Notes: generated from the sequence alone by a model not told the origin. Counted from the first letter of the stretch, positions 9,912 to 48,774 are shown. The stretch: DNA of 50,433 nucleotides from Candidatus Buchananbacteria bacterium (GCA_041664985.1 JBAYJS010000001.1:1-50433); one strand, 5' to 3'. Numbers and translations are program-made.

Positions 9912-9940
9912 TTGACATAAACAGCAAGATATTCTATGCT
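9912..9940 (+). promoter_or_regulatory. Sigma-70-type promoter of GC-rich cassette A
   Basis: TTGACA (9912-9917), 17 nt, TATGCT (9935-9940). Confidence 0.55.
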
Positions 9941-9985
9941 ATATTGTTAGTTATTTATTAATATATTTCTACGGTTACCTCTAAT

Positions 9986-10090
9986 TTTGCCATGGCAGAA
10001 AGCCCATTATTATTAGTGGATTATCTGCTGTGGCAAACCCAAGCCCGGCCCTCAAATAGCCAAGTCGGCGTTTCCGCATTGGGCGGAAAC
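9986..10090 (+). promoter_or_regulatory. Structured 5' leader of cassette A (two hairpins upstream of the SD)
   Basis: Hairpin 1 pairs TTTGCCATGGCAG (9986-9998) with CTGCTGTGGCAAA (10025-10037); two of the pairs are G-U wobbles that work only on the + strand RNA. Hairpin 2 is GTTTCCGC-ATTGG-GCGGAAAC (10070-10090), abutting AAGGAGG (10091-10097). A second AGGAG (10102-10106) lies 7 nt before the ATG. Confidence 0.55.
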
Positions 10091-10113
10091 AAGGAGGCGG
10101 CAGGAGATGGAAT

Positions 10114-10725
10114 ATGAAGACGTTGAATTGGAAAGAAGTCGGACGGTTTTTGTCGGTAGTTCAAAATTTGTATGCAGTTATTCATTATGCGTTCTCGGGT
10201 GCAGGAGTGGGACTCGAGATCATCGAGGTCGACGAGAACACCATCCGCGTCAATCTTGACGCACCGCCCACGCTACCGTTTAACGGAGCAATGGTGAAAA
10301 CCAACAGGAAGGGCGGCTGGGTCACTCTGCAAAAGCGAGCCGACGGACTGTATCAGGATGGCCATAAGTTCAGCCTGTATCGGTCCGAATACCAGAAGAA
10401 CGGCCAGGTTATCGGAGGTTATGATCTTGGCAACGAAGTGGTAAACCTTCCGGTCGTGCATCCCAACATTGAGGACGCGCTCCTGAAATATCCTCACCTC
10501 ATTCCCGAGAAATGGAAGAAAGATGAAAATGGCAATACCATTTACATTTACTTCTGGGCTGTCACATTCAGTGATCGGGACGGCCGTGTCTGCGTTCGCT
10601 GTATGTGCTTCGACGACGACGGTTGGCGCCGGGACTGCGTCAGGCTGGACGGCAGCGACTTCGGCGGCAGAGGCCCGGCGGCGGTCCTCACAGGTAACCT
10701 AAGTCCTTCGGACTTAAGAACTTAG
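10114..10725 (+). CDS. Cassette A: hypothetical 203-aa protein, GC-rich, Cys/Trp/Asp-rich C-terminus; no family recognised
   Basis: Long ORF in a visibly GC-rich stretch with C/G-ending codons (atc gag gtc gac gag aac acc atc cgc). AGGAG lies 7 nt upstream of the ATG. R/G/D-rich composition differs from the K/I/N-rich neighbours. Confidence 0.75.
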   Translation: MKTLNWKEVGRFLSVVQNLYAVIHYAFSGAGVGLEIIEVDENTIRVNLDAPPTLPFNGAMVKTNRKGGWVTLQKRADGLYQDGHKFSLYRSEYQKNGQVIGGYDLGNEVVNLPVVHPNIEDALLKYPHLIPEKWKKDENGNTIYIYFWAVTFSDRDGRVCVRCMCFDDDGWRRDCVRLDGSDFGGRGPAAVLTGNLSPSDLRT

Positions 10726-10770
10726 ACCTTGACTTTTGGTCTCAGTGCTTAGTCCTTGGATATGTAACTC

Positions 10771-10819
10771 ATCGACTCGCGTTGGTTCTCATAGACTGGC
10801 GCGGGTCGATTTCTTTTTA
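10771..10819 (+). terminator. Intrinsic terminator of cassette A
   Basis: ATCGACTCGCG (10771-10781) pairs with CGCGGGTCGAT (10800-10810), 11 bp including one U-G wobble, followed by TTCTTTTT. Confidence 0.7.
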
Positions 10820-10827
10820 CCCCCCCC
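10820..10827. repeat. Homopolymeric C8 tract
   Basis: ttac cccccccc gtt, read directly. It lies between the cassette A terminator and the start of the glycosyltransferase gene. Confidence 0.9.
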
Positions 10828-10890
10828 GTTAGATGTTTTAGTGGGAGTTAGCAGCTTGCCAAAACTGATTTTTTGTGGTTAAATAAGGGC

Positions 10891-12384
10891 ATGAAAGCAA
10901 ATATAAAATTCCGAATTTTAGAAATTATTCCAGGATTTCTAGTCTGGTTAACAATCCTTGGCACCATTCTTCTTTCCTTTATTAAGCCTTTATGGGCGAT
11001 TTATTTTATTATCGCTTTTGACTTATATTGGTTGCTTAGGATTTTATACATGCTAATTTACCTTTTGGCTTCCTGGAAACGTTATCGCCACGATTTGAGC
11101 ATTGATTGGTTTGCTAAAGTCAAAGAATTGCCAAAGGATTACAATGAGTATTATCATTTGATTTTTTTGCCAACCTATAAAGAGCCTTATCAAATTGTTG
11201 AAAAACCTTTTTTGGCGTTATGCCAATCAAATTATGATTTGAAAAAATTTATTGTGGTTTTGGCGGGTGAAGAGCTGGATCAAGATAATTTTTTACAGAT
11301 TTCTGAAAAAATTAAGCAAGAATACGGTGATAAGTTTTTTCAGTTTTTAATTACAATTCATCCGGCCCATGTTCCCGGCGAGCTTCAGGGTAAAGGTTCA
11401 AACACGCACTATGCTGCCAGGCAAGCTCAGAAGTTGATTGACCAACTTGGTTTTGACTACGCCAAGGTGATTGTTTCTAATTTTGATATTGACACCTGCG
11501 TTCATCCGCAATATTTTTCTTATTTAACCTATAAGTATTTAACTCATCCAAATCCGACGCGAGCAAGTTATCAACCGATTGCGATTTATAATAATAACGT
11601 TTGGGAGTCTAATCCGATTGTTCGAGTGGTAGCCAGTTCCACAACTTTTTGGCTTTTGACTGACCTGTCGCGGCCGGAACGGCTTTTTACTTTTTCCTCT
11701 CACAGTATGAGTTTTCGGGCCTTGGTTGATGTTGGCTTTTGGGACAATACGATTGTAACTGAAGATTCAAGAATTTTTTTGCAATGTTTGGTTCGCTATG
11801 ATGGCGATTATGAAACCGTACCAATGTATCTACCGGTTTATATGAATACTGTTGATATTGGTAATTTGTGGCGCAGTCTGAAAAATCAATATAAACAAAT
11901 GCGGCGCTGGGCTTGGGGTGTTGAACATTTCCCCTGGATGGTTAAAGAATTTTGGTTTAAAGAAGGTCAGGGTAAAAAAGTTCCATTTTTAAAAAAAATG
12001 TATTATTTATGGAATCAAACTGAGGGCGTTTATTCTTGGGCAACGGCGCCAATTATTATTTTGTTGGCTGGGCATTTACCTTTGTGGTTAGCGGCCCAAA
12101 ATGATCGGACAACGGCTTTATTTCAAAATGCACCTCACGTTTTAGCTTGGTTGATGCGTTTTTCGATGTTTGGCATGATTGTAATCGCAATATTGTATGC
12201 GATAATGTTGCCCCAAAAACCAAAACATTATCATTGGCATAATTATTTTGTCATGGTGTTGCAATGGGTTTTGGTGCCGGTGACTTTAATTCTTTTTGGG
12301 TCGATACCGGCAACCGATGCTCAAACCAGGTTAATGCTTGGTGGTAAATTCAGACTTGGTTTTTGGGTAACCGAGAAAAAATAA
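10891..12384 (+). CDS. Integral-membrane family-2 glycosyltransferase (processive beta-glycan synthase-like)
   Basis: N- and C-terminal TM segments flank a GT-A domain with TEDSRIF (TED-like) and QYKQMRRWAWG (QxxRW) motifs. ATG at 10891 is preferred over the TTG at 10873 listed in the track. Confidence 0.8.
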   Translation: MKANIKFRILEIIPGFLVWLTILGTILLSFIKPLWAIYFIIAFDLYWLLRILYMLIYLLASWKRYRHDLSIDWFAKVKELPKDYNEYYHLIFLPTYKEPYQIVEKPFLALCQSNYDLKKFIVVLAGEELDQDNFLQISEKIKQEYGDKFFQFLITIHPAHVPGELQGKGSNTHYAARQAQKLIDQLGFDYAKVIVSNFDIDTCVHPQYFSYLTYKYLTHPNPTRASYQPIAIYNNNVWESNPIVRVVASSTTFWLLTDLSRPERLFTFSSHSMSFRALVDVGFWDNTIVTEDSRIFLQCLVRYDGDYETVPMYLPVYMNTVDIGNLWRSLKNQYKQMRRWAWGVEHFPWMVKEFWFKEGQGKKVPFLKKMYYLWNQTEGVYSWATAPIIILLAGHLPLWLAAQNDRTTALFQNAPHVLAWLMRFSMFGMIVIAILYAIMLPQKPKHYHWHNYFVMVLQWVLVPVTLILFGSIPATDAQTRLMLGGKFRLGFWVTEKK

Positions 12385-12437
12385 AAAATTATCATTAAAT
12401 CTTATTAATTTCTTATTTCCTTAATTTATTATTTTTC

Positions 12438-13463: not shown

Positions 13464-13477
13464 TTTTTGTTTTGACT

Positions 13478-14408: not shown

Positions 14409-15416
14409 ATGTTGATTAAGAAAATTGGAATTGATTTAGGAACAACCAACTCATTGGTTTATTTGCCAAAGCGGGGGATTGTAATTAACGAACCATCAGT
14501 GGTGGCAGTTTCGTCAGTTGATAAAAAAATCTTGGCCGTCGGGGCTGAAGCTAAGGAAATGCTTGGCCGAACGCCGGATACGATTATTGCCGTTAGGCCA
14601 ATGAAAGACGGTGTGATTGCTGATTATAAAACCACCGCCGCTATGTTGCGCTATTTTGTCAATAAAGCTTTGGGCGGCGTGAGACTTTTTCGGCCAGAAG
14701 TAATGGTGGCGGTGCCCGCCGGTATTACTTCAACTGAAAGAAGAGCAGTAATTGATGCCACAATTGCCGCCGGTGCCAAAGCGGCTTATATTATCAAAGA
14801 ACCGATTGTGGCAGCGATTGGCGCCAATATTCCAATTGGTTCGCCTTCAGGCCATATGATTATTGATATTGGCGGTGGTACCTCGGAAATGGCGGTTATT
14901 TCTTTAGGCGGAATTGTCGCTTCCACGTCCGTTCGGATTGGCGGCAACCGATTTGATAGCGCCATTGCCGAATATGTTCGCCGGAAATACAATTTGGCAA
15001 TCGGTGAGAGAACGGCTGAACGGATAAAAATTGATATTGGTTCGGCTATGTATATGGAAGAGCGGCTTTTAACCGAGGTTCGCGGTCGGGATATTGTAAC
15101 AGGTTTACCGCGAACAATTGAAGTTACCTCTGACGATGTGACTGATGGAATTCAAAATGAACTTGAAGGAATTATCCAGGCAGTTAAAGATGTTTTACAC
15201 AAAACGCCGCCCGAACTTTCGGCTGACGTTATTGATAAAGGTATCATTATGTCTGGCGGTTCAAGTTTATTACGAAATATTGATCAACTTATCACTCAAG
15301 TTACCGGCGTACCGGCCTATATTGCCGATGAAGCGCTATTTTGTGTGGCCAAAGGTACTGGTATTGCCTTAGAAAATTTGGAATCATATAAGAGAAGTAT
15401 TCTATCAATAAAATAA
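14409..15416 (+). CDS. mreB: Rod-shape-determining actin homolog MreB, copy 1
   Basis: IGIDLGTTNSLVY, RPMKDGVIADY, VPAGITSTERRAV, IDIGGGTSE.AVISLGGIV and GGSSLLRNID. Confidence 0.93.
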   Translation: MLIKKIGIDLGTTNSLVYLPKRGIVINEPSVVAVSSVDKKILAVGAEAKEMLGRTPDTIIAVRPMKDGVIADYKTTAAMLRYFVNKALGGVRLFRPEVMVAVPAGITSTERRAVIDATIAAGAKAAYIIKEPIVAAIGANIPIGSPSGHMIIDIGGGTSEMAVISLGGIVASTSVRIGGNRFDSAIAEYVRRKYNLAIGERTAERIKIDIGSAMYMEERLLTEVRGRDIVTGLPRTIEVTSDDVTDGIQNELEGIIQAVKDVLHKTPPELSADVIDKGIIMSGGSSLLRNIDQLITQVTGVPAYIADEALFCVAKGTGIALENLESYKRSILSIK

Positions 15417-22341: not shown

Positions 22342-22377
22342 AAAAAAAGAAGACCGGAGTTAGTGAGACCGGTCTTT
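22342..22377 (-). terminator. Intrinsic terminator of cassette B (may also stop proS from the other side)
   Basis: On the minus strand, AAGACCGG...CCGGTCTT stem (22349-22357/22369-22377) followed by CTTCTTTTTTTA. Confidence 0.7.
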
Positions 22378-22615
22378 AGGCGACAGCTTTCAGGTCGTGG
22401 CGAAATGCTTTTTCGCTTCCTTGTGGCCGAAGCCAAAGGATGCTGCCGTGGCAGCATGCCGCGAGAAGCGGTTTGTCGTTGAGGTCTTTTGGCACCCAGA
22501 GGCCAAGGCCGCCAGCGCATTTGTTCGGTCCGGTTACTATCCGTCCAGACCGGTTGCCTGCGCCGCTTCGTTTTTCGCAAATCCTGCGAGACTTTCTGCC
22601 AGTGCCGTTTTTCAT
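22376..22615 (-). CDS. Cassette B: candidate 79-aa basic, Cys-containing protein; a structured ncRNA is not excluded
   Basis: ATG at 22615 with GGAGG (22632-22628) 12 nt upstream. Codons are strongly C-ending (GGC, AAC, UGC, GAC, CUC, CAC). The UAA stop abuts the terminator hairpin. Caveat: four overlapping ORFs in different frames are open here. Confidence 0.4.
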   Translation of the reverse strand: MKNGTGRKSRRICEKRSGAGNRSGRIVTGPNKCAGGLGLWVPKDLNDKPLLAACCHGSILWLRPQGSEKAFRHDLKAVA

Positions 22616-22700
22616 AAAGAACGAATTCCTCCGTCGGGTTGGTTTATGCCTTTTTCTGCCTTTTTGATTGCCACCCGATTAGCAATCATAATTAAAAATA

Positions 22701-22729
22701 AATATACTAGATAATATCCATTTTGTCAA
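22701..22729 (-). promoter_or_regulatory. Sigma-70-type promoter of cassette B
   Basis: Minus strand: TTGACA (22729-22724), 17 nt, TATATT (22706-22701). Confidence 0.6.
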
Positions 22730-32112: not shown

Positions 32113-32161
32113 AAAGGGAAAGGGCCGATTCATGCGCGCATCAATGCACATAAACCGGCCC
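32113..32161 (-). terminator. Terminator-like hairpin of cassette C
   Basis: Minus strand: GGGCCG (32161-32156)...CGGCCC (32127-32122), enclosing a 10-bp ATGCGCGCAT palindrome, followed by TTTCCCTTT. Confidence 0.45.
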
Positions 32162-32195
32162 CGTGAAAGCAGAATGTTCTGCTGGTAAGCAACGA

Positions 32196-32294
32196 CTAGC
32201 GTTGCTGTTCGCGAGCTTGCTGGATTTCTTTCAGCAGCTCTTCGCGACTGGCGGCAACGATCACGTTGCCTTGCGAGTCAACTACTCGTACCAT
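32196..32294 (-). CDS. Cassette C: candidate 32-aa micro-protein MVRVVDSQGNVIVAASREELLKEIQQAREQQR
   Basis: Not in the ORF track. GGAGG (32306-32302) lies 7 nt upstream of the ATG at 32294. GC-rich codons, own promoter and terminator. Confidence 0.45.
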   Translation of the reverse strand: MVRVVDSQGNVIVAASREELLKEIQQAREQQR

Positions 32295-32361
32295 TGGTCT
32301 TCCTCCGTTGTCTCTTATCTCTGCCTTTTGTTTTCCCATCCTGTGAGATGGTTAACAATAT

Positions 32362-32390
32362 ATAATACCATATTGTATAAATATTGTCAA
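32362..32390 (-). promoter_or_regulatory. Sigma-70-type promoter of cassette C
   Basis: Minus strand: TTGACA (32390-32385), 17 nt, TATTAT (32367-32362). Confidence 0.6.
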
Positions 32391-35571: not shown

Positions 35572-36111
35572 TTTTTTATCATTAAGGCTTTATTTTTTAG
35601 TTCCCTAGCCTTGCGTCGCAAAATATATAAATAAAAAAAAGTTGGTAGGCAGGGTAAAGGGGATAAGCTGAAAAAAATTATTGGTTAAGGTGATCAAAAG
35701 GTAACGTTTTTGTCTATCTATTTTAGACTTCATGGATAAGTCCGCTTGGCGGATTTTTTTATTTAAAATTTATATTTTAGGGTTAATTAGTATTAACTTA
35801 ATCTAAAATGATTAAATCAATTAATATTTATTACAAAATAGATAGGTGGGATACCTAAAAGAGTTTAAGTTGTTAAGTTTTTGATTGATTTGGATCCTTT
35901 TTATGGGTTTAGGCTCAGACTTTATTATCTGGCCAAAAGCACTACCCTAGTGTCGTATAAGATATATTGTGCGACTCTAAGCTATTTAAAAATAAAGCCT
36001 AACTAATCAATAATCAATTATTCCCCCGTTAAATCAGCCAGGGATTTTTTATAATTTAATTTTAAAATTAAATTATTTTTATTAAATAAATATTAATCCT
36101 TCATTTTGGCC

Positions 36112-36140
36112 TTGACACGGTTATTTTTTGGCGTTAAAAT
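36112..36140 (+). promoter_or_regulatory. Sigma-70-type promoter of cassette D
   Basis: TTGACA (36112-36117), 17 nt, TAAAAT (36135-36140). Confidence 0.6.
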
Positions 36141-36180
36141 AAAAAGCCGGCTTTTAGCCAGGAATTTGCACCTTAAAACA

Positions 36181-36237
36181 GTTTGCCCTTCGCTAATGGT
36201 CAATAAGAGTTTTATTGACGGTTAAGGGAGGGCAAAC
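36181..36237 (+). promoter_or_regulatory. Long nested hairpin in the cassette D leader
   Basis: Outer stem GTTTGCCCTTC (36181-36191)/GGGAGGGCAAAC (36226-36237). Inner stem GTCAATAA (36199-36206)/TTATTGAC (36212-36219). The 3' arm buries a GGGAGGG SD-like element. Confidence 0.55.
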
Positions 36238-36301
36238 AACAGCCGGGACTGGTCATTTCGGGTATGTTTAGCCCAACCTCTAATTCATAAGTATCAATCT
36301 T

Positions 36302-36466
36302 ATGTTTGAAGCCATCAGAGGGGGTCTGGCTCTCGCCGTGACCTTAGTGGTCCTAAAGCTGTTCCTCCCCGAGGTCGCAGCAAAGCTTGTCTTGTTGATT
36401 ACTAACGTGATTGACATTTTACTGCTCGCAGTGAATCAAGCTTCTGTTGCCAACCTCATTCACTAA
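36302..36466 (+). CDS. Cassette D: candidate 54-aa hydrophobic (two-helix) peptide MFEAIRGGLALAVTLVVLKLFLPEVAAKLVLLITNVIDILLLAVNQASVANLIH
   Basis: Not in the ORF track. It is the only sizeable ORF in a roughly 350-nt GC-rich promoter-to-terminator unit. There is no SD next to the ATG, so the unit could instead be a non-coding RNA. Confidence 0.4.
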   Translation: MFEAIRGGLALAVTLVVLKLFLPEVAAKLVLLITNVIDILLLAVNQASVANLIH

Positions 36467-36471
36467 AACCC

Positions 36472-36507
36472 GAAGGCTCGAGATTAATTTCCCGAGCCTT
36501 CTTTTCT
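36472..36507 (+). terminator. Intrinsic terminator of cassette D
   Basis: GAAGGCTCG (36472-36480)/CGAGCCTTC (36493-36501) 9-bp stem followed by TTTTCT. Confidence 0.7.
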
Positions 36508-39234: not shown

Positions 39235-39274
39235 TAATATATTTATAGCACAAATTTGGCATTTTTACAAAAAT

Positions 39275-39303
39275 ATTGACAAAAAAGCTTTGTCAATATA
39301 ACT
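39275..39303 (+). promoter_or_regulatory. Promoter of cassette E, embedded in a 9-bp perfect inverted repeat
   Basis: ATTGACAAA (39275-39283) / TTTGTCAAT (39289-39297). TTGACA (39276-39281) is followed after 15-16 nt by TATAAC/ATAACT. The palindrome also places a TTGACA on the minus strand, facing the M23 gene. Confidence 0.5.
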
Positions 39304-39355
39304 TTATAGCAAGTGAAATAATGACTATTCTGAACACATTGGAGGAGAATCAGCC

Positions 39356-39568
39356 ATGAAGGTAGCTATTTGCACCAGGCGGGTCAGCTTTTTGCCAATC
39401 AGTCAATCGGCTGGCAAAAAGGTCAGTGTCTTAGTAAGGAATCATGCCAAATTGGGCCAAATCAAGCGTCGAGCCTGGCTGGCATTGGCAAGAAAATTGG
39501 GGCAGAAGCCCGCTGTTTTGAAGCAACAGTACAGTATTGGCCCGTTAACCTGGAAGGAGAAATTGTGA
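39356..39568 (+). CDS. Cassette E gene 1: hypothetical 70-aa basic protein
   Basis: GGAGGAG (39341-39347) lies 8 nt before the ATG. GC-rich. The stop overlaps the next start (GTGA). Confidence 0.5.
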   Translation: MKVAICTRRVSFLPISQSAGKKVSVLVRNHAKLGQIKRRAWLALARKLGQKPAVLKQQYSIGPLTWKEKL

Positions 39569-39735
39569 TAAACCAAACTAGTCAATCGGCTGCTGGCAGC
39601 CAGACTGGCCAGCCACAATTTTCGGCTGAGCAGGCCAGGGAGGTTGCGGCCATGGCCGCTCTCAGCCAACGGCACCGTCTGAACCCGGGACAACTTTGGC
39701 AGGCGCTTCACCCTGCCCCTCATGCACCTTATTGA
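39565..39735 (+). CDS. Cassette E gene 2: hypothetical 56-aa protein (GTG start; Q/S/G-rich N-terminus, AEQAREVAAMAALSQRHRLNPGQLWQAL core)
   Basis: AGGAG (39555-39559) lies 5 nt before the GTG at 39565. Same frame as the 121-aa track ORF, whose upstream part has only a TTG start and no SD. Confidence 0.45.
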   Translation: MINQTSQSAAGSQTGQPQFSAEQAREVAAMAALSQRHRLNPGQLWQALHPAPHAPY

Positions 39736-39736
39736 C

Positions 39737-39768
39737 GTAGTCAAATCAAGTATTTGGCTACTTTTTTT
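39737..39768 (+). terminator. Intrinsic terminator of cassette E
   Basis: GTAGTCAAA (39737-39745)/TTTGGCTAC (39753-39761), one U-G wobble valid only on the + strand, followed by T7. It abuts the gltX stop. Confidence 0.75.
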
Positions 39769-41202: not shown

Positions 41203-41231
41203 TTGACAATGGTTAGGTTATTTTGTAAGAT
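41203..41231 (+). promoter_or_regulatory. Sigma-70-type promoter of cassette F
   Basis: TTGACA (41203-41208), 17 nt, TAAGAT (41226-41231). Confidence 0.55.
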
Positions 41232-41278
41232 ATTAGCTCCGGGTCAAAATTTACATAATGATTGGAGGGTTTGCACCC

Positions 41279-41587
41279 ATGGATTTACAGTCAGCAATTA
41301 AGGCGGCAGAGGATTTGGTCAGGAGGGCTGCCGAGAAACAGAGACTTGGATTTGCAGTTTCTGACCTTGCTAGTTTTTCTGCTATTTTTCAGGTCGCCAA
41401 AGCCGGTCAAGGATCAATCACGTTGATTAATCTAGACGCCGAGGTTGAGGGTCAACCTGGTTTGAAAATCCAGGTTATCGACTGGCAGCGCCCTGATGGT
41501 GAGGTTTTTCGGTTTCATTATTGGACCTACGACAATCTGGCGGTGGAACTGGCCAAAGTTGGTATCGAATTACCTGCTGCCGACTGA
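41279..41587 (+). CDS. Cassette F: hypothetical 102-aa protein
   Basis: GC-rich ORF. GGAGGG (41264-41269) lies 9 nt before the ATG at 41279 (an alternative ATG at 41258 has no SD). Followed by a strong hairpin terminator. Confidence 0.6.
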   Translation: MDLQSAIKAAEDLVRRAAEKQRLGFAVSDLASFSAIFQVAKAGQGSITLINLDAEVEGQPGLKIQVIDWQRPDGEVFRFHYWTYDNLAVELAKVGIELPAAD

Positions 41588-41601
41588 TCGGCAAACTGTT
41601 T

Positions 41602-41634
41602 AGGCTTCATCTTTTTAGGTGAAGCCTGTTTTTT
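41602..41634. terminator. Strong hairpin terminator of cassette F, overlapping the 3' end of the convergent tagA-like gene
   Basis: AGGCTTCATC (41602-41611)/GGTGAAGCCT (41618-41627) 10 bp with one U-G wobble, followed by GTTTTTT. Confidence 0.75.
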
Positions 41635-43119: not shown

Positions 43120-43152
43120 AAAAAAAAGACCTTACTAATACTACGTAAGGTC
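43120..43152 (-). terminator. Intrinsic terminator of cassette G
   Basis: Minus strand: GACCTTAC/GTAAGGTC 8-bp stem (43152-43145/43135-43128) followed by T8. Confidence 0.8.
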
Positions 43153-43162
43153 GCCAATGAAC

Positions 43163-43720
43163 TTAATCGCCACCTCCAAGGTGCATCAAAATGCGGACGC
43201 ATTTTTGGGGGTTGCGGTTGTACGCTGCCAAGAAATAGCACCTTAGCCACGTATCGTCGCCACAAACTGTTGGCCAGTAAGCTCCTGGAACCTTGCTGTG
43301 GCATTCGATCTCCGCTTCGGTCATGTCCCTGACCGAGCTAGGATCGACTAAGTAAGAGTCCCAGCCCCCGTTCCAAAGGATCGGGGCGAACTGGGCTTGG
43401 CCCAAAAACATGCTGATCCGAGCCCGGCAAACGTCCTGATTGGCTGGCTCCATGATGCCAAATGCCCATCCCCAAAGATATTCTGGGGAGCATTTCGTCC
43501 TGTCGGGGACGAAAATGTCCTCTTCTAGTCCAAAGACTGTAGAGCGGGCATAGGCAAACCGGAAGCCGGCAAGATACTTTTCCAGGTCTCGGTTCCTAAT
43601 CTTTTGGGCCAGTTTGGCGCGCTCTTTTGTCGCGCCTTGGCCGGGGCCAAACTTTTGGTCCAGCGCCGCCAACCGTTGCTCGTAAGTTCTGCCTACATTT
43701 GTCTCTCCCTGTTGGGCCAT
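43163..43720 (-). CDS. Cassette G: hypothetical 185-aa protein, Trp/Cys-rich; no family recognised
   Basis: GC-rich ORF. GGAGG (43732-43728) lies 7 nt before the ATG. The leader has nested hairpins: GACAGGA/TCCTGTC (43741-43747/43783-43789) and GCAATTAG-loop-CTAATTGC (43754-43774). Confidence 0.75.
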   Translation of the reverse strand: MAQQGETNVGRTYEQRLAALDQKFGPGQGATKERAKLAQKIRNRDLEKYLAGFRFAYARSTVFGLEEDIFVPDRTKCSPEYLWGWAFGIMEPANQDVCRARISMFLGQAQFAPILWNGGWDSYLVDPSSVRDMTEAEIECHSKVPGAYWPTVCGDDTWLRCYFLAAYNRNPQKCVRILMHLGGGD

Positions 43721-43813
43721 CGCTTTTCCTCCTATCGTTAGACAGGAGAATCAGCAATTAGCCAATCTAATTGCACATTTCATCCTGTCATAGTGAATTG
43801 AAAAGAGCTTTGT

Positions 43814-43842
43814 AATATATACTATAATTATGTTTTTGTCAA
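43814..43842 (-). promoter_or_regulatory. Sigma-70-type promoter of cassette G
   Basis: Minus strand: TTGACA (43842-43837), 17 nt, TATATT (43819-43814). Confidence 0.6.
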
Positions 43843-43850
43843 GTTATAAT

Positions 43851-43886
43851 AAAAAAAAGACCCTTGGTTTAAATTCCCGGGTCTTT
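43851..43886 (-). terminator. Intrinsic terminator of cassette H
   Basis: Minus strand: AAAGACCC...GGGTCTTT stem (43886-43879/43863-43856) running into a T-run (reverse complement of the A-run at 43851-43858). Confidence 0.65.
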
Positions 43887-43909
43887 GTCCGAATGATTTT
43901 GATTGTTGG

Positions 43910-44341
43910 CTATATGTCTAAAGCCTCAAAAACGGCGGCCTTTTTCTCCTTTGTGGAGATGTTTTTAAGAGAGGTTTTAAAATCAACATCTCTTATGACC
44001 TGGCCGGTAACAGCGAGTAGTTCAAGGGCCTGTTTGAGATCTGAGTAATTCTTAGACAACACTGCCTCTCCGGCTCGTCGCGCGACTTGGAATCGTACAT
44101 CCCTTTTGGCGTGGGCCTGTATGGTTCGGAAATCTTCCCAAAGAATTTTCTCGCCCCGACGAGTCTTAATGGTGCGGGCCTCAACTGGGTTCAAGAGTTG
44201 AATGTAACGGCCTTTAGTCTGGCCTTGCTTTCCTAAGGCTGAATCTACTCCAAGTAGTCGCTTCTGGCTAAACCAAACGGCGGTTACTTGTACAGACCCA
44301 ATCTTTCCCCGCCTTTGAAGGTGCGATACTTTAGTTGACAT
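43910..44341 (-). CDS. Cassette H: hypothetical 143-aa basic protein; no family recognised
   Basis: GGAGG (44354-44350) lies 8 nt before the ATG at 44341. The N-terminal 41 codons of the longer track ORF are AT-rich promoter sequence. Confidence 0.7.
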   Translation of the reverse strand: MSTKVSHLQRRGKIGSVQVTAVWFSQKRLLGVDSALGKQGQTKGRYIQLLNPVEARTIKTRRGEKILWEDFRTIQAHAKRDVRFQVARRAGEAVLSKNYSDLKQALELLAVTGQVIRDVDFKTSLKNISTKEKKAAVFEALDI

Positions 44342-44429
44342 GGCTGTATCCTCCTGATTTAAAGGTTTCTGCCATTTGTCCTGTTGCTGCCCAGTGCAGT
44401 GACGAATCGGACGTTGTTTGTCATAATAA

Positions 44430-44458
44430 TTTATATAACAAAAAAATATTTTTAGCAA
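44430..44458 (-). promoter_or_regulatory. Candidate promoter of cassette H
   Basis: Minus strand: TTGCTA (44458-44453), 17 nt, TATAAA (44435-44430). Confidence 0.45.
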
Positions 44459-44568
44459 CAGCAAAAAATAAAAAAAGTTACGGTCTTAAATTATTACCAA
44501 GATGCTTTGAAAGTATTATATAAAAAAACTTATGATAATTACAAAATTGTAGTATAATAATTGTATAT

Positions 44569-45588: not shown

Positions 45589-45604
45589 ATTAAAATAACT
45601 CATC

Positions 45605-46942: not shown

Positions 46943-46969
46943 AGTTTAAAAGTTTTTAACTTTTATTTT

Positions 46970-47767
46970 ATGCCCATAGTTTTTGCCGCCTCTGTCCCCC
47001 ATCCACCGGTTTTAATTCCGGAAATCGGTAAGGACAATATTAAACAAATCAAAAAAACCGAAGACGCGTTCAAAAAGCTTGAGCAGGATTTTTATGCGTC
47101 TAAGCCGGAGAGTATTTTGATTATTTCGCCTCATGGTAAAGTTTTAGCTGATGCTTTCAGTATTAATCTGAATGCCGATTACACGGCTAATTTTAAAGAC
47201 TTTGGTGACTTTGGTTTGGAAATGAAATTCAAAAGCGATTATTTATCAATTCAAGAAATCAGAGCAGCTGATGAAACCAGCAAAACGATTCCAATCGTTT
47301 TGTCTAGTGACCAAGAGTTGGATCACGGTTTTTCCATTCCGCTTTACTTTTTAACTCAGCATTTGAAAAATATTCCGATTATTCCGGTGACTTATTCAAC
47401 TTTGGATTATCAGCAGCATTTTGCTTTTGGTCAATTTTTGCATCGCCAGCTTTCAAAAATAAATAAAAGATTTGCCGTGATTGCGTCTGGTGATTTGTCT
47501 CACCGTCTCACCAAAGAAGCGCCGGCGGGCTATTCGGAAAAAGGTCAGGAATTTGATAATAAATTGATTGAATTGATCAAAAACAAAGATTTTGCCGGTT
47601 TATTAAAAATTGATCCGGAACTGATTAGTCAGGCCGGTGAATGCGGTTTGCGTTCGATTATTATTTTGGCTGGTATTATTGAGTCTTTGAATTTTGCGCC
47701 AGAGATTCTTTCCTATGAAGGTCCGTTTGGTGTCGGTTACTTGATCAGTGAATTTAAATTAGTTTAA
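46970..47767 (+). CDS. LigB/Memo-superfamily protein (class III extradiol dioxygenase subunit B-like)
   Basis: AASVPHPPVLIPEIG N-terminal motif, DHGFSIPLYF, and ASGDLSHRL. Confidence 0.7.
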   Translation: MPIVFAASVPHPPVLIPEIGKDNIKQIKKTEDAFKKLEQDFYASKPESILIISPHGKVLADAFSINLNADYTANFKDFGDFGLEMKFKSDYLSIQEIRAADETSKTIPIVLSSDQELDHGFSIPLYFLTQHLKNIPIIPVTYSTLDYQQHFAFGQFLHRQLSKINKRFAVIASGDLSHRLTKEAPAGYSEKGQEFDNKLIELIKNKDFAGLLKIDPELISQAGECGLRSIIILAGIIESLNFAPEILSYEGPFGVGYLISEFKLV

Positions 47768-47785
47768 ACCTAAAATTTTTTGTAT

Positions 47786-47817
47786 AAAAAAGTAGAGACT
47801 TGTGTCTCTATTTTTTT
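47786..47817. terminator. Bidirectional intrinsic terminator
   Basis: A-run, TAGAGAC (47793-47799)/GTCTCTA (47804-47810) with a 4-nt loop, then T7. Confidence 0.75.
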
Positions 47818-48071
47818 GATATGATTTTGAAAAAATATTTCCATTTTTCTGTGGTCTGACAAAGTTCTTTGGTATCATTGAGGCATTTTTCAATAAATTC
47901 TTTGGGGTATTTTTTGCAGACCAAAAAGACGGAATTTTTTTTTGGCGGCGGAATATTGAGTTCATTAATAATTTTTAAAGCCAAATCCTGCCATTGATAA
48001 GCCGGCGGTTTAACCGTCTTTTTTTTAGCTAAAATGTCTTTAAAATTTTGAAAACCATTATCAATTGGCAT
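47808..48071 (-). CDS. Hypothetical protein (87 aa), native AT-rich composition
   Basis: ORF only. No family recognised. Confidence 0.45.
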   Translation of the reverse strand: MPIDNGFQNFKDILAKKKTVKPPAYQWQDLALKIINELNIPPPKKNSVFLVCKKYPKEFIEKCLNDTKELCQTTEKWKYFFKIISKK

Positions 48072-48099
48072 ATTGGGATTATAACAAAATTTTGTTGAT

Positions 48100-48131
48100 A
48101 AAAAAAGAGATTCACTAAAAATCAGTGAATC
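48100..48131 (-). terminator. Intrinsic terminator of cassette I
   Basis: Minus strand: GATTCACT/AGTGAATC 8-bp stem (48131-48124/48116-48109) followed by CTCTTTTTTT. The stop codon of gene I2 lies in the stem. Confidence 0.75.
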
Positions 48132-48351
48132 AACTCAAAGAACGAAGATAATACTTGCCTGGGGCCGGCCCGATTAGGATGATGTAAAGGCAGATGCCTA
48201 CGCCGCAGGCGATAAAGATCCAGGGTGCCAGCAGATTGATTGCAAAGTTTCTGGCTCGACCATGGTTTTTGGGCAATGTTTGCCAGCACAGCCCAGTGCC
48301 GATGATTTGGATTGCCAGCAATGTCAGTAAAATATACCAAAGCCAAGTCAT
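48130..48351 (-). CDS. Cassette I gene 2: hypothetical 73-aa two-TM membrane protein
   Basis: GGGAGG (48363-48358) lies 6 nt before the ATG at 48351. Hydrophobic helices WLWYILLTLLAIQIIGTGL and LLAPWIFIACGVGICLYIILI. Confidence 0.6.
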   Translation of the reverse strand: MTWLWYILLTLLAIQIIGTGLCWQTLPKNHGRARNFAINLLAPWIFIACGVGICLYIILIGPAPGKYYLRSLS

Positions 48352-48352
48352 G

Positions 48353-48706
48353 TTAGTCCTCCCAGTTTGAACGGCCGGTGCCTACCGGTGGATACGGATA
48401 TTCGTCAGCCGAGATATCTTCCCAGATCGTGCAGATTCGGTCGATAAGCCAAGACACGGCCAAGGCGATGGCCAAAAGAATTGGGCCAAAAAGCTTGGCA
48501 CCAAGCTTTTTGCCAGGCAAAGTCAGCACGTCCCAGATAAAATCGGCCAGTCGCTTTGACCACTCTTTTTTAACCGATTTATCCCAGGAGTCAGGATTGT
48601 TGGTTGTCAGCTTGGCTGTTTGGTGCCGCTGGGCAAGCGCCCGATCTAGGCCATTTGCCAGGTATATCACAACGCCGGCAAGTAACCCAATCAATGTAGT
48701 AGACAT
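48353..48706 (-). CDS. Cassette I gene 1: hypothetical 117-aa membrane protein (N-terminal and central TM helices, acidic/Pro-rich tail)
   Basis: GGGAGG (48720-48715) lies 8 nt before the ATG at 48706. GC-rich. Its last codons contain the SD of gene 2. Confidence 0.65.
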   Translation of the reverse strand: MSTTLIGLLAGVVIYLANGLDRALAQRHQTAKLTTNNPDSWDKSVKKEWSKRLADFIWDVLTLPGKKLGAKLFGPILLAIALAVSWLIDRICTIWEDISADEYPYPPVGTGRSNWED

Positions 48707-48745
48707 GGTGTTTTCCTCCCTATCTGCGGTTTGAACACTACCGTG

Positions 48746-48774
48746 ATTTTAGGTAATTAATATTAAAAAGTCAA
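48746..48774 (-). promoter_or_regulatory. Sigma-70-type promoter of cassette I
   Basis: Minus strand: TTGACT (48774-48769), 17 nt, TAAAAT (48751-48746). Confidence 0.6.

What the first reader, a model, noticed from the sequence alone, without database searches (positions are those of the whole stretch)
9912..48774. Nine or more GC-rich, SD-bearing, self-contained cassettes inserted between SD-less AT-rich housekeeping genes
Seen in the sequence: the backbone genes are AT-rich and encode K/I/N-rich proteins. I could find no GGAGG-type Shine-Dalgarno in front of any of them (for example aaaatatatctATG at holB, tataatatctATG at proS, aaaattATG at lysS, attaatttATG at def).

Nine short stretches are visibly GC-richer and encode R/A/G/W/C-rich ORFs:
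- A 9912-10827
- B 22342-22729
- C 32113-32390
- D 36112-36507
- E 39275-39768
- F 41203-41634
- G 43120-43842
- H 43851-44458
- I 48100-48774

They repeat one architecture:
- A TTGACA-like -35 and an A/T-rich -10 sit in the flanking AT-rich DNA.
- Several have a hairpin-containing leader (A, B, D, G).
- A canonical GGAGG or GGGAGG lies 5-12 nt before the start codon. Ten of the eleven ORFs have this; D is the exception.
- Each carries one or two small ORFs (32-203 aa) that match no family I recognise.
- Each ends in a strong intrinsic terminator. Several terminators contain G-U wobbles that fit only the proposed strand.

Every cassette sits in an intergenic gap between conserved genes, sometimes in the opposite orientation to both neighbours (E, F). 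No integrase, transposase, tRNA or flanking direct repeat is present.

Established knowledge: this is the definition of phage morons, which are promoter-gene-terminator units of deviant composition between conserved genes. Here it occurs in a cellular housekeeping region.

Inference: these may be a family of independently acquired or specially regulated accessory micro-operons of unknown function. Candidates are host-interaction, toxin/immunity or defence factors. The retained SD in an organism that otherwise seems not to use SD suggests recent foreign (higher-GC donor) origin or a dedicated translation regime.
Basis: partly seen in the sequence, partly recalled or inferred. Interest (0 to 1): 0.8.

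Follow-up and report, generated by a model that had tools for sequence, protein, structure and literature searches.

The report
GC-rich SD-led mini-operons in Parcubacteria
A tiny groundwater bacterium (Parcubacteria) translates its AT-rich core genes without ribosome-binding sites, yet scatters GC-rich, self-contained mini-genes with textbook promoters, ribosome-binding sites and terminators between them; this looks like a long-lived special gene class, not freshly imported DNA.

Summary
Eleven small ORFs in nine islets have GC3 0.45-0.63, against 0.26-0.48 for 45 backbone genes. Ten of the 11 carry GGAG-type Shine-Dalgarno (SD) motifs; none of the 45 backbone genes does (Fisher p = 3e-10). 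The best promoter and terminator matches in the window sit on the islets. Independent assemblies carry cassettes A, G, H and I in identical form, so these are not chimeras.

The organism is a Parcubacterium close to Candidatus Buchananbacteria. Four syntenic relatives show the same split. Their slots may be empty (F, G/H, E), hold unrelated GC-rich SD-led ORFs, or hold fast-diverging orthologues (C, E, I). D is a conserved core gene.

Cassette A is a target gene of a diversity-generating retroelement (DGR). A 59%-identical homologue has a template repeat in which all 15 mismatches fall on adenines, plus an Avd gene. The roughly 1-kb A unit occurs in five genomic contexts. No other ORF matches Pfam, PHROGs, PADLOC or NCBIfam, and neither modelled protein matches a PDB fold.

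The "moron-like accessory unit" reading is partly supported. "Recent foreign origin" is not supported for C, D, E and I. A reserved SD translation channel remains possible but untested, because the window holds no 16S rRNA.

The parts
9818..10819 (+). Cassette A as a unit. Upstream insulating hairpin 9854-9872; -35 at 9912-9917; -10 at 9935-9940; structured leader about 9947-10113; SD GGAG 10104-10107; ORF 10114-10725 (203 aa); terminator 10771-10810.
   Evidence: The whole unit is conserved with L012 in a different genomic context, and the promoter plus leader are highly conserved at the nucleotide level. The leader folds with z = -4.1. A long leader stem is seen in five loci, with apparent compensatory changes by eye. 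The terminator has 17 pairs.
10573..10716 (+). DGR variable-region equivalent of A (10573-10692). It ends in the GC-rich stretch CCCGGCGGCGGTCCTC, followed by the hairpin TAAGTCC-TTC-GGACTTA (10700-10716).
   Evidence: Compared with the template repeat of L012, 23 of 35 template-A sites differ against 13 of 85 other sites (p = 1e-7). The A content is 0.12 here against 0.25 for the whole ORF. The 3' GC-rich end and the hairpin are conserved with the L012 variable region.
22342..22729 (-). Cassette B. -35 at 22729-22724; -10 at 22706-22701; SD 22632-22628; ORF 22615-22376 (79 aa, pI 10.5); terminator about 22375-22342.
   Evidence: No homology search was run for B, and this exact sequence is not in the protein collection. 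Coding is inferred from the SD, the ATG and an ORF that fills the transcript.
32113..32390 (-). Cassette C. -35 at 32390-32385; -10 at 32367-32362; SD 32306-32302; ORF 32294-32196 (32 aa); terminator 32162-32121.
   Evidence: An orthologous cassette in L018 has a well-conserved promoter, an SD, a 34-aa ORF and a conserved terminator, but a strongly diverged peptide.
36112..36507 (+). Cassette D. -35 at 36112-36117; -10 at 36135-36140; structured leader 36147-36301 in which GGGAGGG is sequestered in a hairpin; SD-less ORF 36302-36466 (54 aa, membrane); terminator 36472-36501.
   Evidence: The leader folds with z = -4.0. A transmembrane-like segment is predicted. Orthologues are present in L018, L024, L025 and L020 (91, 62, 60 and 50% identity), so D is a core gene.
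39276..39768 (+). Cassette E. Promoter with the palindrome TTGACAAAAAAGCTTTGTCAA; SD 39341-39345; E1 39356-39568 (70 aa, pI 11.8); E2 39565-39735 (56 aa), whose GTG start overlaps the E1 stop; terminator 39737-39761.
   Evidence: L018 has orthologues at 50% aa identity with conserved promoter, SD and terminator. The slot is empty in L020 and L025 and holds an unrelated 126-aa GC-rich ORF in L024.
41203..41634 (+). Cassette F. -35 at 41203-41208; -10 at 41226-41231; SD 41264-41268; ORF 41279-41587 (102 aa); terminator 41601-41628, which overlaps the 3' end of the WecG-family gene.
   Evidence: It is a clean ~410-nt insertion. In L018 the WecG-family gene and gltX overlap, and L024 and L025 are also empty at this point. 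L020 has a different ~540-nt GC-rich SD-led ORF at the same junction. The ORF folds with z = -3.9.
43120..43842 (-). Cassette G. -35 at 43842-43837; -10 at 43819-43814; leader hairpin; SD 43732-43728; ORF 43720-43163 (185 aa); terminator about 43152-43120.
   Evidence: The C-terminal 75-aa domain (ILWNGGWDxY...HLGGGD) occurs in 46 protein clusters, either alone or at the end of ~280-aa proteins; two of three scanned carry a weak, sub-threshold cold-shock-domain match. AlphaFold2 gives pLDDT above 90 for most of the C-terminal domain, with no PDB fold match. The leader folds with z = -6.3 and the ORF with z = -5.5. G is absent from all four relatives.
43851..44460 (-). Cassette H. Weak promoter at about 44460-44430; SD 44354-44350; ORF 44341-43910 (143 aa, pI 10.5); terminator about 43885-43851.
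   Evidence: Only one homologue was found among 5.8 billion proteins (60% identity, on a 991-nt contig). H is absent from all four relatives. L018 has an unrelated 147-aa ORF in this slot.
48100..48774 (-). Cassette I. -35 at 48774-48769; -10 at 48751-48746; SD 48719-48715; I1 48706-48353 (117 aa, two transmembrane-like segments); SD 48362-48358; I2 48351-48130 (73 aa, two transmembrane-like segments); terminator 48131-48109.
   Evidence: The slot is occupied in L018, L020 and L025 by one to three small ORFs with GGAGG (L024 does not reach it). I1 has homologues at 57% (partial) in L020 and 30% in L018.

Best explanation
The islets are a distinct, lineage-wide class of small-protein genes in a Buchananbacteria-like Parcubacterium. 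They are not recent imports.

How each unit works. Each is an insulated expression unit: a full sigma-70 type -35/-10 promoter, a 35-170-nt leader that is often a stable hairpin, SD-dependent initiation, one or two small ORFs, and an intrinsic terminator. The surrounding core operons use neither SD nor long leaders. Some look leaderless, with an extended -10 box 6 nt before the ATG.

How the units change. They occupy a limited set of intergenic slots between conserved genes. Across relatives these slots differ by presence or absence of a unit, by unrelated contents, and by rapid divergence of the coding part. The promoter, SD and terminator ends stay conserved. I infer that turnover happens by recombination between the conserved flanks; this was not tested.

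What they encode. The content is mixed:
- A is a DGR variable-protein gene, a hypervariable binding protein.
- D, I1 and I2 are small membrane proteins, and D is core to the clade.
- E1/E2 are a translationally coupled pair of small proteins (E1 strongly basic) behind a palindromic promoter.
- B, C, F, G and H are orphan small proteins.

Inference. They are fast-evolving envelope or interaction factors, directed at a host, a phage or competitors. Their output is controlled separately from housekeeping genes through SD-dependent, leader-gated translation. The GC-richness at all codon positions is a maintained property of the class. Its cause is unknown; candidates are selection for mRNA structure or stability, rare-codon use, or recombination-linked GC bias.
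For: Shown:
- The class split is very strong in the window: SD in 10/11 cassette ORFs against 0/45 backbone genes, and median GC3 0.57 against 0.36.
- The split recurs in L018 (3/4 against 0/20) and L020 (7/8 against 1/18). It is also seen by inspection in L024, L025, L002, L004, L005 and L012, including SD-less ribosomal-protein genes in L004.
- D is retained in all five syntenic genomes and is still GC-rich where computed (GC3 0.53-0.58 in the window, L020 and L025).
- The C and E orthologues in L018, and the I-slot ORFs in L018, L020 and L025, keep GGAG(G) at SD distance while the proteins drop to about 30-50% identity or, for C, below tblastn detection. GltX is 87-69% identical across the same genomes.
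- Slot turnover is documented: F, G/H and E are empty in some relatives, and unrelated ORFs fill the G/H, E and C slots in others.
- The A unit of about 1 kb lies in five contexts. The DGR proof in L012 is 15/35 template-A sites mismatched against 0/85 other sites, with bAvd adjacent. The window copy shows the same signature, 23/35 against 13/85.
- The leaders of A, D and G, and the ORFs of G, F and C, fold far better than shuffled controls. Core windows average z = -0.5, sd 1.2.
- Independent assemblies rule out chimeras for A, G, H and I.

Inferred: the function of the SD, the role of the proteins and the cause of the GC bias.
Against: - No 16S rRNA lies on the contig, so an anti-SD in this organism is not shown.
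- In another Parcubacterium that carries an A homologue (L022), the 16S tail reads GGAGUAAUUCCAAA, without CCUCC. Its A gene still has GGAGG 4 nt before the ATG. In that genome the motif cannot act by canonical pairing.
- About half of Parcubacteria lack the anti-SD motif (PMC9297842).
- GGAGG depletion in core genes occurs on both strands, so it gives no evidence for a working anti-SD.
- GC enrichment at codon positions 1 and 2 is what a foreign origin would predict.
- F, G and H have no orthologue in any relative examined.
- No function was assigned to 10 of the 11 ORFs.
- Only four syntenic relatives were seen, and only for the C-to-I part of the window. The A and B slots were not compared.
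Confidence: 0.55

Rival explanations
1. Recent horizontal acquisition. The cassettes are un-ameliorated imports from higher-GC, SD-using donors. They were inserted by illegitimate or flank-guided recombination, and the SD and GC content are simply donor traits.
For: - GC is raised at all three codon positions and the proteins are R/A/G/W-rich.
- F, G and H are absent from all relatives, and F is a clean insertion.
- Unit A is found in five unrelated contexts, with GC3 0.54-0.79 whatever the host GC3 (0.17-0.58).
- L022 lacks the anti-SD, yet its A cassette keeps GGAGG.
- All cassette proteins looked up are near-singletons (1-3 members) at 90% identity.
Against: - D is core to the clade.
- C, E and I are syntenic orthologues whose SD, promoter and terminator are conserved across lineages with 69-87% GltX identity. 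Neutral GC3 and unused SD motifs should have decayed over that distance.
- No donor was found. Apart from one MAG binned as Terrimicrobiaceae, which I suspect is misbinned, the named homologue is from Buchananbacteria, and every locus inspected has an AT-rich (one at 50% GC), SD-less core like this one.
- The A and G families have no relatives in IMG/VR.
Confidence: 0.25
2. Phage morons or remnants of prophages and other mobile elements. The units were delivered by a temperate phage or an integrative element that has since decayed, leaving only the cargo.
For: - The promoter-gene-terminator architecture and deviant composition match the moron definition.
- DGRs, to which A belongs, are often phage-borne (PMC8144416).
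Against: - There are no phage, integrase or transposase genes in 50 kb, no tRNA attachment site and no flanking repeats.
- No PHROG hit has an E-value below 0.02.
- The A and G families are absent from IMG/VR.
- The DGR clade restricted to Patescibacteria is almost entirely cell-encoded (PMC8144416).
- Nine separate single-gene insertions are not what prophage decay leaves behind.
Confidence: 0.05
3. The GC-rich islets are mainly structured non-coding RNAs, or dual-function RNAs such as type I toxin mRNAs. In AT-rich genomes, GC-rich islands usually mark RNA genes. On this reading some of the ORFs are incidental.
For: - Whole-transcript folding z-scores are -8.1 (G), -6.3 (C and D), -5.8 (A), -4.6 (H) and -3.7 (F). 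Core windows average -0.5, sd 1.2.
- ORF-only z-scores are -5.5 (G), -3.9 (F) and -3.3 (C).
- The C peptide diverges while its promoter and terminator are conserved.
- D and I2 are short hydrophobic ORFs behind structured leaders, as in type I toxins.
Against: - Protein-level homologues exist for A (15 proteins including the query), the G domain (46 clusters), H, D, E1 and I1.
- The ORFs fill the space from SD to terminator. An SD at the right spacing is kept in orthologues.
- Much of the whole-transcript z-score comes from terminator and leader hairpins. ORF-only z is -0.3 to -2 for A, B, E, H and I.
- There is no Rfam match even at E = 1.
- No antisense RNA was identified.
Confidence: 0.1
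4. Assembly artefact: chimeric joins of reads from a higher-GC organism into an AT-rich contig.
For: The composition boundaries are sharp.
Against: - A, G, H, I1 and I2 recur exactly, in the same context, in independent assemblies (ERZ27249449, SRR6484324).
- Orthologous cassettes sit in the same slots in relatives from other samples.
- The boundaries coincide with promoters and terminators.
Confidence: 0.01

Closest known systems
Phage morons (promoter-gene-terminator units between conserved lambdoid phage genes)
   Same: They are autonomous transcription units with their own promoter and terminator. Their composition is deviant. They sit between conserved genes, are absent from some relatives, and carry cargo of mostly unknown function.
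   Different: The host is a cellular chromosome among housekeeping genes, with no phage context or phage homologues. Several units (D, C, E, I) are inherited vertically over long distances. They also differ from their neighbours in translation-initiation mode, which is not part of the moron concept.
DGR variable-protein genes, including remote targets (applies to cassette A)
   Same: A homologue (L012) has a variable/template repeat pair with strictly adenine-specific mismatches and an Avd gene. The window copy keeps the A-depleted variable region, the GC-rich 3' end and the downstream hairpin. Patescibacteria are known to be rich in DGRs (PMC8144416).
   Different: There is no template repeat, reverse transcriptase or Avd on the 50-kb contig. 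The confident AlphaFold2 model (pLDDT 84) matches no PDB chain, so no C-type lectin fold was detected, although that fold is typical of DGR targets. The protein is identical in two assemblies, so there is no sign of ongoing diversification at consensus level.
SD-blind translation in Bacteroidia, with the SD reserved for rpsU (PMC7797042, PMC9976891, PMC13000453)
   Same: Almost all genes in the lineage lack an SD, while a few specific genes carry a strong one. That opens the possibility of a separate, switchable translation channel.
   Different: In Flavobacterium johnsoniae one gene (rpsU) carries a strong SD; here about 10 ORFs in 50 kb do. They are small accessory or orphan proteins, not a ribosomal protein. 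Whether the 16S rRNA keeps, sequesters or has lost the anti-SD is unknown for this organism. It is lost in at least one other Parcubacterium (L022).
Hypervariable genomic islets of streamlined bacteria, and integron gene cassettes
   Same: Strain-variable small genes of unknown function sit at fixed positions between core genes. Content is replaced while the flanks are kept.
   Different: The scale is 0.3-1 kb single-gene units, each with its own promoter, SD and terminator. No attC-like repeat family or integrase was found, and integron cassettes are usually promoterless.
Type I toxin-antitoxin loci and small membrane proteins
   Same: D, I1 and I2 (and many slot ORFs in relatives) are membrane proteins of 49-117 aa. 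D has a structured leader. All have strong terminators and lie in intergenic positions.
   Different: No antisense RNA or overlapping promoter was identified. D is conserved like a core gene. Most cassette ORFs (A, B, C, E, F, G, H) are not hydrophobic.

Membership tests
Phage moron | Lies inside a phage or prophage genome between conserved phage genes | tested here: not met
   The flanks are gpmI, a GT2 glycosyltransferase, proS, mreB, serS, alr, gltX, a WecG-family gene, LigT, a radical-SAM gene and def. There are no PHROG hits and no phage or recombinase domains.
Phage moron | Own promoter and own terminator, with composition unlike the neighbours | tested here: met
   The top sigma-70 and terminator matches of the window fall on the cassettes. 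The GC3 difference has p = 4e-7.
Phage moron | Absent from the same position in related genomes | tested here: inconclusive
   Met for F, G and H, and for E in L020 and L025. Not met for D, which is in all five genomes. C, E and I have orthologues in at least one relative.
DGR target gene (cassette A) | Variable region paired with a template repeat that differs only at template adenines | tested here: inconclusive
   Met in the homologue L012/L013: 15/35 A sites against 0/85 other sites. The window has no template repeat on the contig. Its variable region still shows the adenine-biased pattern against the L012 template (23/35 against 13/85, p = 1e-7).
DGR target gene (cassette A) | Reverse transcriptase and accessory Avd in the locus | tested here: not met
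   No reverse-transcriptase or Avd domain was found among the unidentified ORFs scanned. bAvd lies next to the L012 homologue. A remote DGR elsewhere in the genome cannot be excluded.
DGR target gene (cassette A) | GC-rich IMH-type 3' end of the variable region (IMH: initiation of mutagenic homing), followed by a hairpin | tested here: met
   CCCGGCGGCGGTCCTC followed by the TAAGTCC-TTC-GGACTTA hairpin. Both are conserved with L012.
DGR target gene (cassette A) | Variable region displayed on a C-type lectin (or Ig-like) fold | tested here: not met
   The AlphaFold2 model has pLDDT 84, and 90-95 over most of the variable region. No PDB or BFVD match has E below 0.03, and TM-scores are about 0.1-0.2.
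Integron gene cassette | attC recombination site at the cassette end and an IntI integrase nearby | tested here: not met
   The cassettes share no repeat family. No integrase domain was found. The cassettes carry their own promoters.
Known RNA families (Rfam 15) | Covariance-model match at the gathering score | tested here: not met
   Zero matches at gathering score. Only two chance-level matches appear at E up to 1.
Bacteroidia-type reserved-SD translation | Core genes lack an SD while a few genes carry a strong one | tested here: met
   SD in 0/45 backbone genes against 10/11 cassette ORFs. The same holds in relatives.
Bacteroidia-type reserved-SD translation | The 16S rRNA retains the CCUCC anti-SD | not testable with these tools
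In the unrelated Parcubacterium L022 the tail is GGAGUAAUUCCAAA, with no CCUCC. About 48% of Parcubacteria keep the motif (PMC9297842).
Type I toxin-antitoxin | Small hydrophobic toxin ORF plus an overlapping antisense RNA | tested here: inconclusive
   D, I1 and I2 are hydrophobic, and the D leader is structured. No antisense promoter or RNA was identified, and D is conserved like a core gene.

The most novel reading that the evidence does not exclude
Some Parcubacteria run two translation-initiation regimes in one cell. Housekeeping genes are read without an SD, from leaderless or A/U-rich starts. SD/anti-SD pairing is reserved for a dispersed regulon of GC-rich, structured-leader mRNAs that encode fast-evolving small envelope or interaction proteins, including DGR-diversified ones. 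A change in ribosome state, for example exposure of the 16S tail as in Bacteroidia ribosomes lacking bS21, could then switch the whole accessory set on or off at once. The GC-richness would be selected, because only SD-anchored ribosomes can start on such structured mRNAs.
Probability: 0.2. Interest if true: 0.85.

Novelty: new variant of a known kind. Interest (0 to 1): 0.6.

Why it matters
Candidate phyla radiation (CPR/Patescibacteria) bacteria make up a large share of bacterial diversity. They are mostly uncultured, and much of their strain-specific gene content is small proteins of unknown function.

This window gives a simple sequence rule that separates such genes from the core genome: a full -35/-10 promoter, a leader, GGAGG, a GC-rich small ORF and a terminator. 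The rule holds in several Parcubacteria lineages and persists over long evolutionary distances.

If the rule holds genome-wide, it offers three things:
- A way to list the interaction or accessory gene set of these episymbionts straight from sequence.
- A natural test of whether a lineage said to have lost or abandoned the anti-SD still uses SD pairing for a subset of genes.
- A case in which atypical composition does not mean recent transfer. This matters for composition-based detection of horizontal transfer and for gene callers, which missed or mis-started several of these ORFs.

It also adds a family of DGR variable proteins whose confident model shows no detectable C-type lectin fold.

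Tried and rejected
- Known families. Pfam, PHROGs, PADLOC and NCBIfam gave nothing for the cassette ORFs scanned (each ORF was scanned against two to four of the libraries). A PDB profile search for family A gave nothing.
- Folds. AlphaFold2 models of A (pLDDT 84) and G (pLDDT 69 overall, above 90 for most of the C-terminal domain) had no PDB match. A also had no BFVD match.
- Rfam. There were no hits at the gathering score or at E up to 1.
- Phage origin. IMG/VR scans with profiles of families A and G found no relatives.
- Close relatives by peptide patterns. The syntenic relatives came instead from a gltX homology search followed by contig look-ups.
- Anti-SD function from motif avoidance. 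GGAGG is depleted in core coding sequence (5 observed against 18 expected). CCTCC (0 against 9) and CTCC (13 against 47) are depleted as well, so the effect is on both strands and says nothing about mRNA-level selection.
- 16S tail. It could not be obtained for this clade. The only 16S 3' end reached belongs to a different Parcubacterium (L022) and lacks CCUCC.
- Shared cassette ends. No attC-like or other repeat family was found.
- F and the 106-aa ORF in the same slot of L020. Their similarity is only marginal (E = 0.04 over 12 residues). H and the 147-aa ORF of L018 show none.
- GC-rich ddl-alr inserts of L018 and L020. They are unrelated to each other and have no Rfam hit.
- Whole-transcript folding z-scores. 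They looked spectacular, but ORF-only and leader-only folds show that terminators and leaders account for much of the signal.
- One folding script timed out. A multi-fragment alignment of the G/H slot was uninformative.

Full report
**1. What is in the window**

The 50,433-base window is a whole contig from a Parcubacterium (Patescibacteria/CPR) close to Candidatus Buchananbacteria. The best GltX relatives are MAGs of that group, at 87-60% identity.

Forty-five backbone genes have GC 0.29-0.45 and GC3 0.26-0.48. They include pgk, eno, two gpmI, three GT2 glycosyltransferases, two mreB, holB, frr, proS, mreC and mreD, a PBP2 homologue, greA, lysS, serS, alr, ddl, ftsQ, gltX, def and others.

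I placed the eleven ORFs by their start codons:
- A: 10114-10725 (+), 203 aa
- B: 22376-22615 (-), 79 aa
- C: 32196-32294 (-), 32 aa
- D: 36302-36466 (+), 54 aa
- E1: 39356-39568 (+), 70 aa
- E2: 39565-39735 (+), 56 aa
- F: 41279-41587 (+), 102 aa
- G: 43163-43720 (-), 185 aa
- H: 43910-44341 (-), 143 aa
- I1: 48353-48706 (-), 117 aa
- I2: 48130-48351 (-), 73 aa

**2. Check of the observation**

Every descriptive claim holds.
- Composition. Cassette ORFs have GC3 0.45-0.63. GC is raised at all three codon positions (0.57/0.42/0.56 against 0.46/0.33/0.36). The proteins are richer in R, A, G, W and C and poorer in K, I and N.
- Shine-Dalgarno. A GGAG-type motif lies at -20..-4 in 10 of 11 cassette ORFs and in none of the 45 backbone genes (Fisher p = 3e-10). 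The median predicted anti-SD duplex energy is -9.5 against +0.7 kcal/mol. D is the exception. Fourteen of the 20 GGAGG sites in the window lie inside cassettes.
- Promoters. The pattern TTGAC-N(15-18)-TANNNT occurs 21 times against 6.5 expected. The 10-12-of-12 consensus matches with a full TTGAC -35 sit in front of A, B, C, D, F, G and I. H has only a weaker match, read by eye.
- Terminators. The strongest terminator-like hairpins of the window are those of A, C, D and F.
- Leaders. The leaders of A, D and G are significantly structured (z = -4.1, -4.0 and -6.3). The B leader is not.
- Absent features. There are no tRNAs, no Rfam families, no flanking repeat family, and no recombinase or reverse-transcriptase domain in the otherwise unidentified backbone ORFs.
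- Not an artefact. The exact proteins A, G, H, I1 and I2 occur in the same context on contigs from other assemblies.

**3. The split is a property of the lineage**

Four syntenic relatives were recovered through GltX:
- L018/L019, 87% identity
- L024, 76%
- L020/L021, 71%, on a 922-kb contig
- L025, 69%

The relatives show the same pattern. Their core genes are AT-rich and SD-less. Small GC-richer ORFs with GGAGG at SD distance sit in the same intergenic slots. The counts are 3/4 against 0/20 in L018 and 7/8 against 1/18 in L020, with clear GC3 shifts.

The pattern also appears in more distant Parcubacteria that carry A homologues (L002, L004, L005, L012). There even ribosomal-protein genes, nusG and secE lack an SD, while the A homologue has one and has GC3 0.54-0.79 against 0.17-0.58 for its neighbours.

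Some core genes at the head of an operon have an extended -10 box ending about 6 nt before the ATG (15609, 16737, 42517, 47808). This suggests leaderless mRNAs. That is an inference from sequence only.

**4. Slots, turnover and inheritance**

The order def, Memo, radical-SAM, LigT, WecG-family, gltX, M23 peptidase, SdpI, ftsQ, ddl, alr, serS is conserved. The gaps between these genes behave as slots.

- F. F is a clean insertion of about 410 nt between the end of the WecG-family gene and the gltX start. In L018 the two genes overlap, and in L024 and L025 they abut. L020 has a different GC-rich SD-led insert of about 540 nt at the same junction.
- G and H. They fill a 1.5-kb gap. That gap is 39 nt in L020 and L025 and 167 nt in L024. 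In L018 it holds an unrelated 147-aa ORF.
- E. E has orthologues in L018 at 50% aa identity, with conserved promoter, SD and terminator. The slot is empty in L020 and L025, and L024 holds an unrelated 126-aa GC-rich ORF.
- C. C has an orthologous cassette in L018. The promoter is well conserved and the terminator is conserved, but the 32/34-aa peptide is strongly diverged. L020 has three small membrane ORFs there and L025 a 377-aa gene.
- I. The I slot is occupied in L018, L020 and L025 (L024 does not reach it) by one to three small ORFs with GGAGG. Recognisable similarity is weak or absent: I1 is 57% identical over a partial match in L020 and 30% in L018.
- D. D is present in all five genomes (91, 62, 60 and 50% identity), tracking GltX. 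It is therefore a core gene. It is still GC-richer than its neighbours, with GC3 0.53-0.58 where computed.

The set is therefore mixed. It contains truly variable units (F, G, H, A), fast-evolving but inherited units (C, E, I), and one conserved small membrane protein (D).

GC3 stays high and the SD is kept in orthologues separated by 13-31% GltX divergence. This argues that both are maintained, not left over from a recent import. This step is an inference: neutral third positions and unused motifs should have decayed over that distance.

**5. Cassette A is a DGR-type variable-protein gene**

A has 14 homologues among 5.8 billion proteins. Apart from one MAG binned as Terrimicrobiaceae, which I suspect is misbinned, the only named one is from Buchananbacteria, and the loci inspected look Parcubacteria-like. 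The homologues lie in four other contexts:
- next to tRNAs and an AMP-binding enzyme gene
- between rplL and secE/nusG
- between a sugar-transferase gene and secD
- next to a DNA methylase gene

In the last locus (L012/L013) the 3' end of the gene is repeated 390 nt downstream. The two copies are identical at 105 of 120 positions. All 15 mismatches fall on adenines of the downstream copy (15/35 A sites against 0/85 other sites, p = 7e-10). A bAvd gene lies next to it. This is the hallmark of a diversity-generating retroelement.

The window copy has no template repeat, Avd or reverse transcriptase on the contig. Even so:
- Its variable-region equivalent (10573-10692) differs from the L012 template mostly at template adenines (23/35 against 13/85, p = 1e-7).
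- It is A-poor (0.12 against 0.25 for the ORF).
- It ends in the conserved GC-rich stretch and hairpin expected of a DGR target.

The whole unit is conserved with L012, from about 95 nt upstream of the -35 box to the terminator. The promoter and 170-nt leader are highly conserved at the nucleotide level, while the protein is 59% identical. A long leader stem recurs in all five loci, with apparent compensatory changes by eye.

The AlphaFold2 model is confident (pLDDT 84). It matches nothing in the PDB or BFVD, so no C-type lectin fold was detected.

Patescibacteria have their own, almost entirely cell-encoded, DGR clade, and remote targets are known to be missed in fragmented assemblies (PMC8144416).

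**6. The other ORFs**

None matches Pfam, PHROGs, PADLOC or NCBIfam.
- G. G carries a C-terminal 75-aa domain (ILWNGGWDxY...WLRC...HLGGGD). It is found in 46 protein clusters, either alone or at the end of ~280-aa proteins; two of three scanned carry a weak, sub-threshold cold-shock-domain match. The domain is predicted confidently but has no PDB match.
- H. H has a single homologue.
- D, I1 and I2. These have transmembrane-like segments.
- B, E1 and H. These are strongly basic (pI 10.5-11.8).
- E1 and E2. Their stop and start codons overlap, and they follow a palindromic promoter.
- Uniqueness. All cassette proteins looked up are near-singletons (1-3 members) at the 90% level.
- Phage link. 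Families A and G have no relatives in IMG/VR.

**7. RNA structure**

Whole cassette transcripts fold much better than dinucleotide shuffles (z down to -8.1). Twenty-six core windows average -0.5, sd 1.2.

Much of this signal comes from terminators and leaders. For ORFs alone, only G (-5.5), F (-3.9), C (-3.3) and D (-2.8) stand out. Structured leaders that end just before the SD (A, G) or that sequester an SD-like GGGAGGG (D) suggest that translation is gated. This was not tested.

**8. The anti-SD problem**

The contig has no rRNA. Published work reports that about half of Parcubacteria lack the CCUCCU motif in 16S rRNA (PMC9297842).

I could reach one 16S 3' end, in L022. This is a different Parcubacterium with 50% GC that carries an A homologue. 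Its tail reads GGAGUAAUUCCAAA where the consensus has GGAUCACCUCCUUU, so it has no canonical anti-SD. Its A homologue nevertheless has GGAGG 4 nt before the ATG.

GGAGG is depleted in the window's core genes, but so is its reverse complement. That depletion therefore says nothing about ribosome-mRNA pairing.

For the window's own clade, the only evidence for a working SD is that the motif is kept at the right spacing in diverged orthologues and in unrelated slot ORFs.

**9. Interpretation**

The best-supported reading is a lineage-wide class of insulated, SD-led, GC-rich small-protein genes. They occupy intergenic slots, turn over or diverge quickly, and include a DGR-diversified binding protein and several small membrane proteins. 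They are most plausibly envelope or interaction factors that are expressed under control separate from housekeeping genes.

The main rival is recent horizontal acquisition. It explains F, G, H, the mobility of A and the L022 paradox. It fails for D, C, E and I, and no donors were found.

Phage-moron, pure non-coding RNA and chimera readings are weak or refuted.

The closest functional analogy for the translation split is Bacteroidia. Their ribosomes ignore SD sequences unless bS21 is missing, and the SD is reserved for rpsU (PMC7797042, PMC9976891, PMC13000453). Membership of that system cannot be claimed without the 16S tail.

**10. Verdict**

The finding is a new variant of known kinds: accessory islets or morons, DGR targets, and SD-less lineages. 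One component is unusual and testable: two translation-signal classes within one genome that persist over long divergence. Interest is scored at 0.6.

Noticed in passing
window 3186-3309 and 4110-4233: A 124-nt AT-rich direct repeat (98% identical) flanks the SIMPL/DUF541 gene (3323-4111), which lies between pgk and eno. Each copy contains internal inverted repeats. It may mark a duplication or an insertion boundary.
   Followed up: no
window, all backbone coding sequence: GGAG/CTCC-type words are depleted on both strands: CTCC 13 against 47 expected (z = -6.2), CCTCC 0 against 9, GGAGG 5 against 18. GGCGG is enriched (z = +5). This looks like avoidance at the DNA level, perhaps of a restriction site, rather than avoidance of SD-like sequences in mRNA.
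   Followed up: partly
window 48811-49059: A perfect TTGACA-16-TATAAT promoter (48811-48838) is followed by a leader hairpin with a U-run (48861-48880, attenuator-like) and an AT-rich 45-aa ORF (48922-49059). A 45-aa ORF sits at the same position just before def in L018, L020 and L025.
   Followed up: partly
window 35572-36111: A 540-nt ORF-less stretch lies between ftsQ and cassette D, with a terminator-like hairpin at 35738-35756. The same gap is 750-990 nt in all four relatives. It could hold an unannotated small RNA.
   Followed up: no
L018 17640-18537 and L020 17551-18295: The ddl-alr junction has almost no gap in the window and in L025. In L018 and L020 it carries ORF-poor inserts of 750-900 nt containing GC-rich stretches (GC 0.50-0.65). 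These are unrelated to each other and have no Rfam match. They may be structured RNAs.
   Followed up: partly
L022 12875-15027: The 16S rRNA of another Parcubacterium is interrupted by insertions that carry LAGLIDADG ORFs. Its 3' tail (GGAGUAAUUCCAAA) lacks the CCUCC anti-SD.
   Followed up: yes
window 39270-39304: The promoter of cassette E contains the palindrome TTGACAAAAAAGCTTTGTCAA. It matches the promoter pattern on both strands and is partly conserved in L018. It may be an operator for autoregulation.
   Followed up: no
window 9990-10040; also L012, L002, L004, L005: The leader of the A family has a conserved long stem (GCCATGGCAGAAAG ... TTCTGCTGTGGC) with apparent compensatory changes, seen by eye, across five loci in different genomes. 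It is a candidate new cis-regulatory RNA linked to a DGR target gene.
   Followed up: partly
window 6522-9746; 14409-15416 and 22740-23798: There are tandem paralogues of phosphoglycerate mutase (gpmI) and two mreB paralogues. Repeat matches of 48-91 nt between the copies are about 70-81% identical.
   Followed up: no
window 6-1079: The contig starts with the C-terminal part of a NiFe-hydrogenase large subunit and a HypA-like nickel chaperone. These are uncommon in Parcubacteria-type reduced genomes.
   Followed up: no
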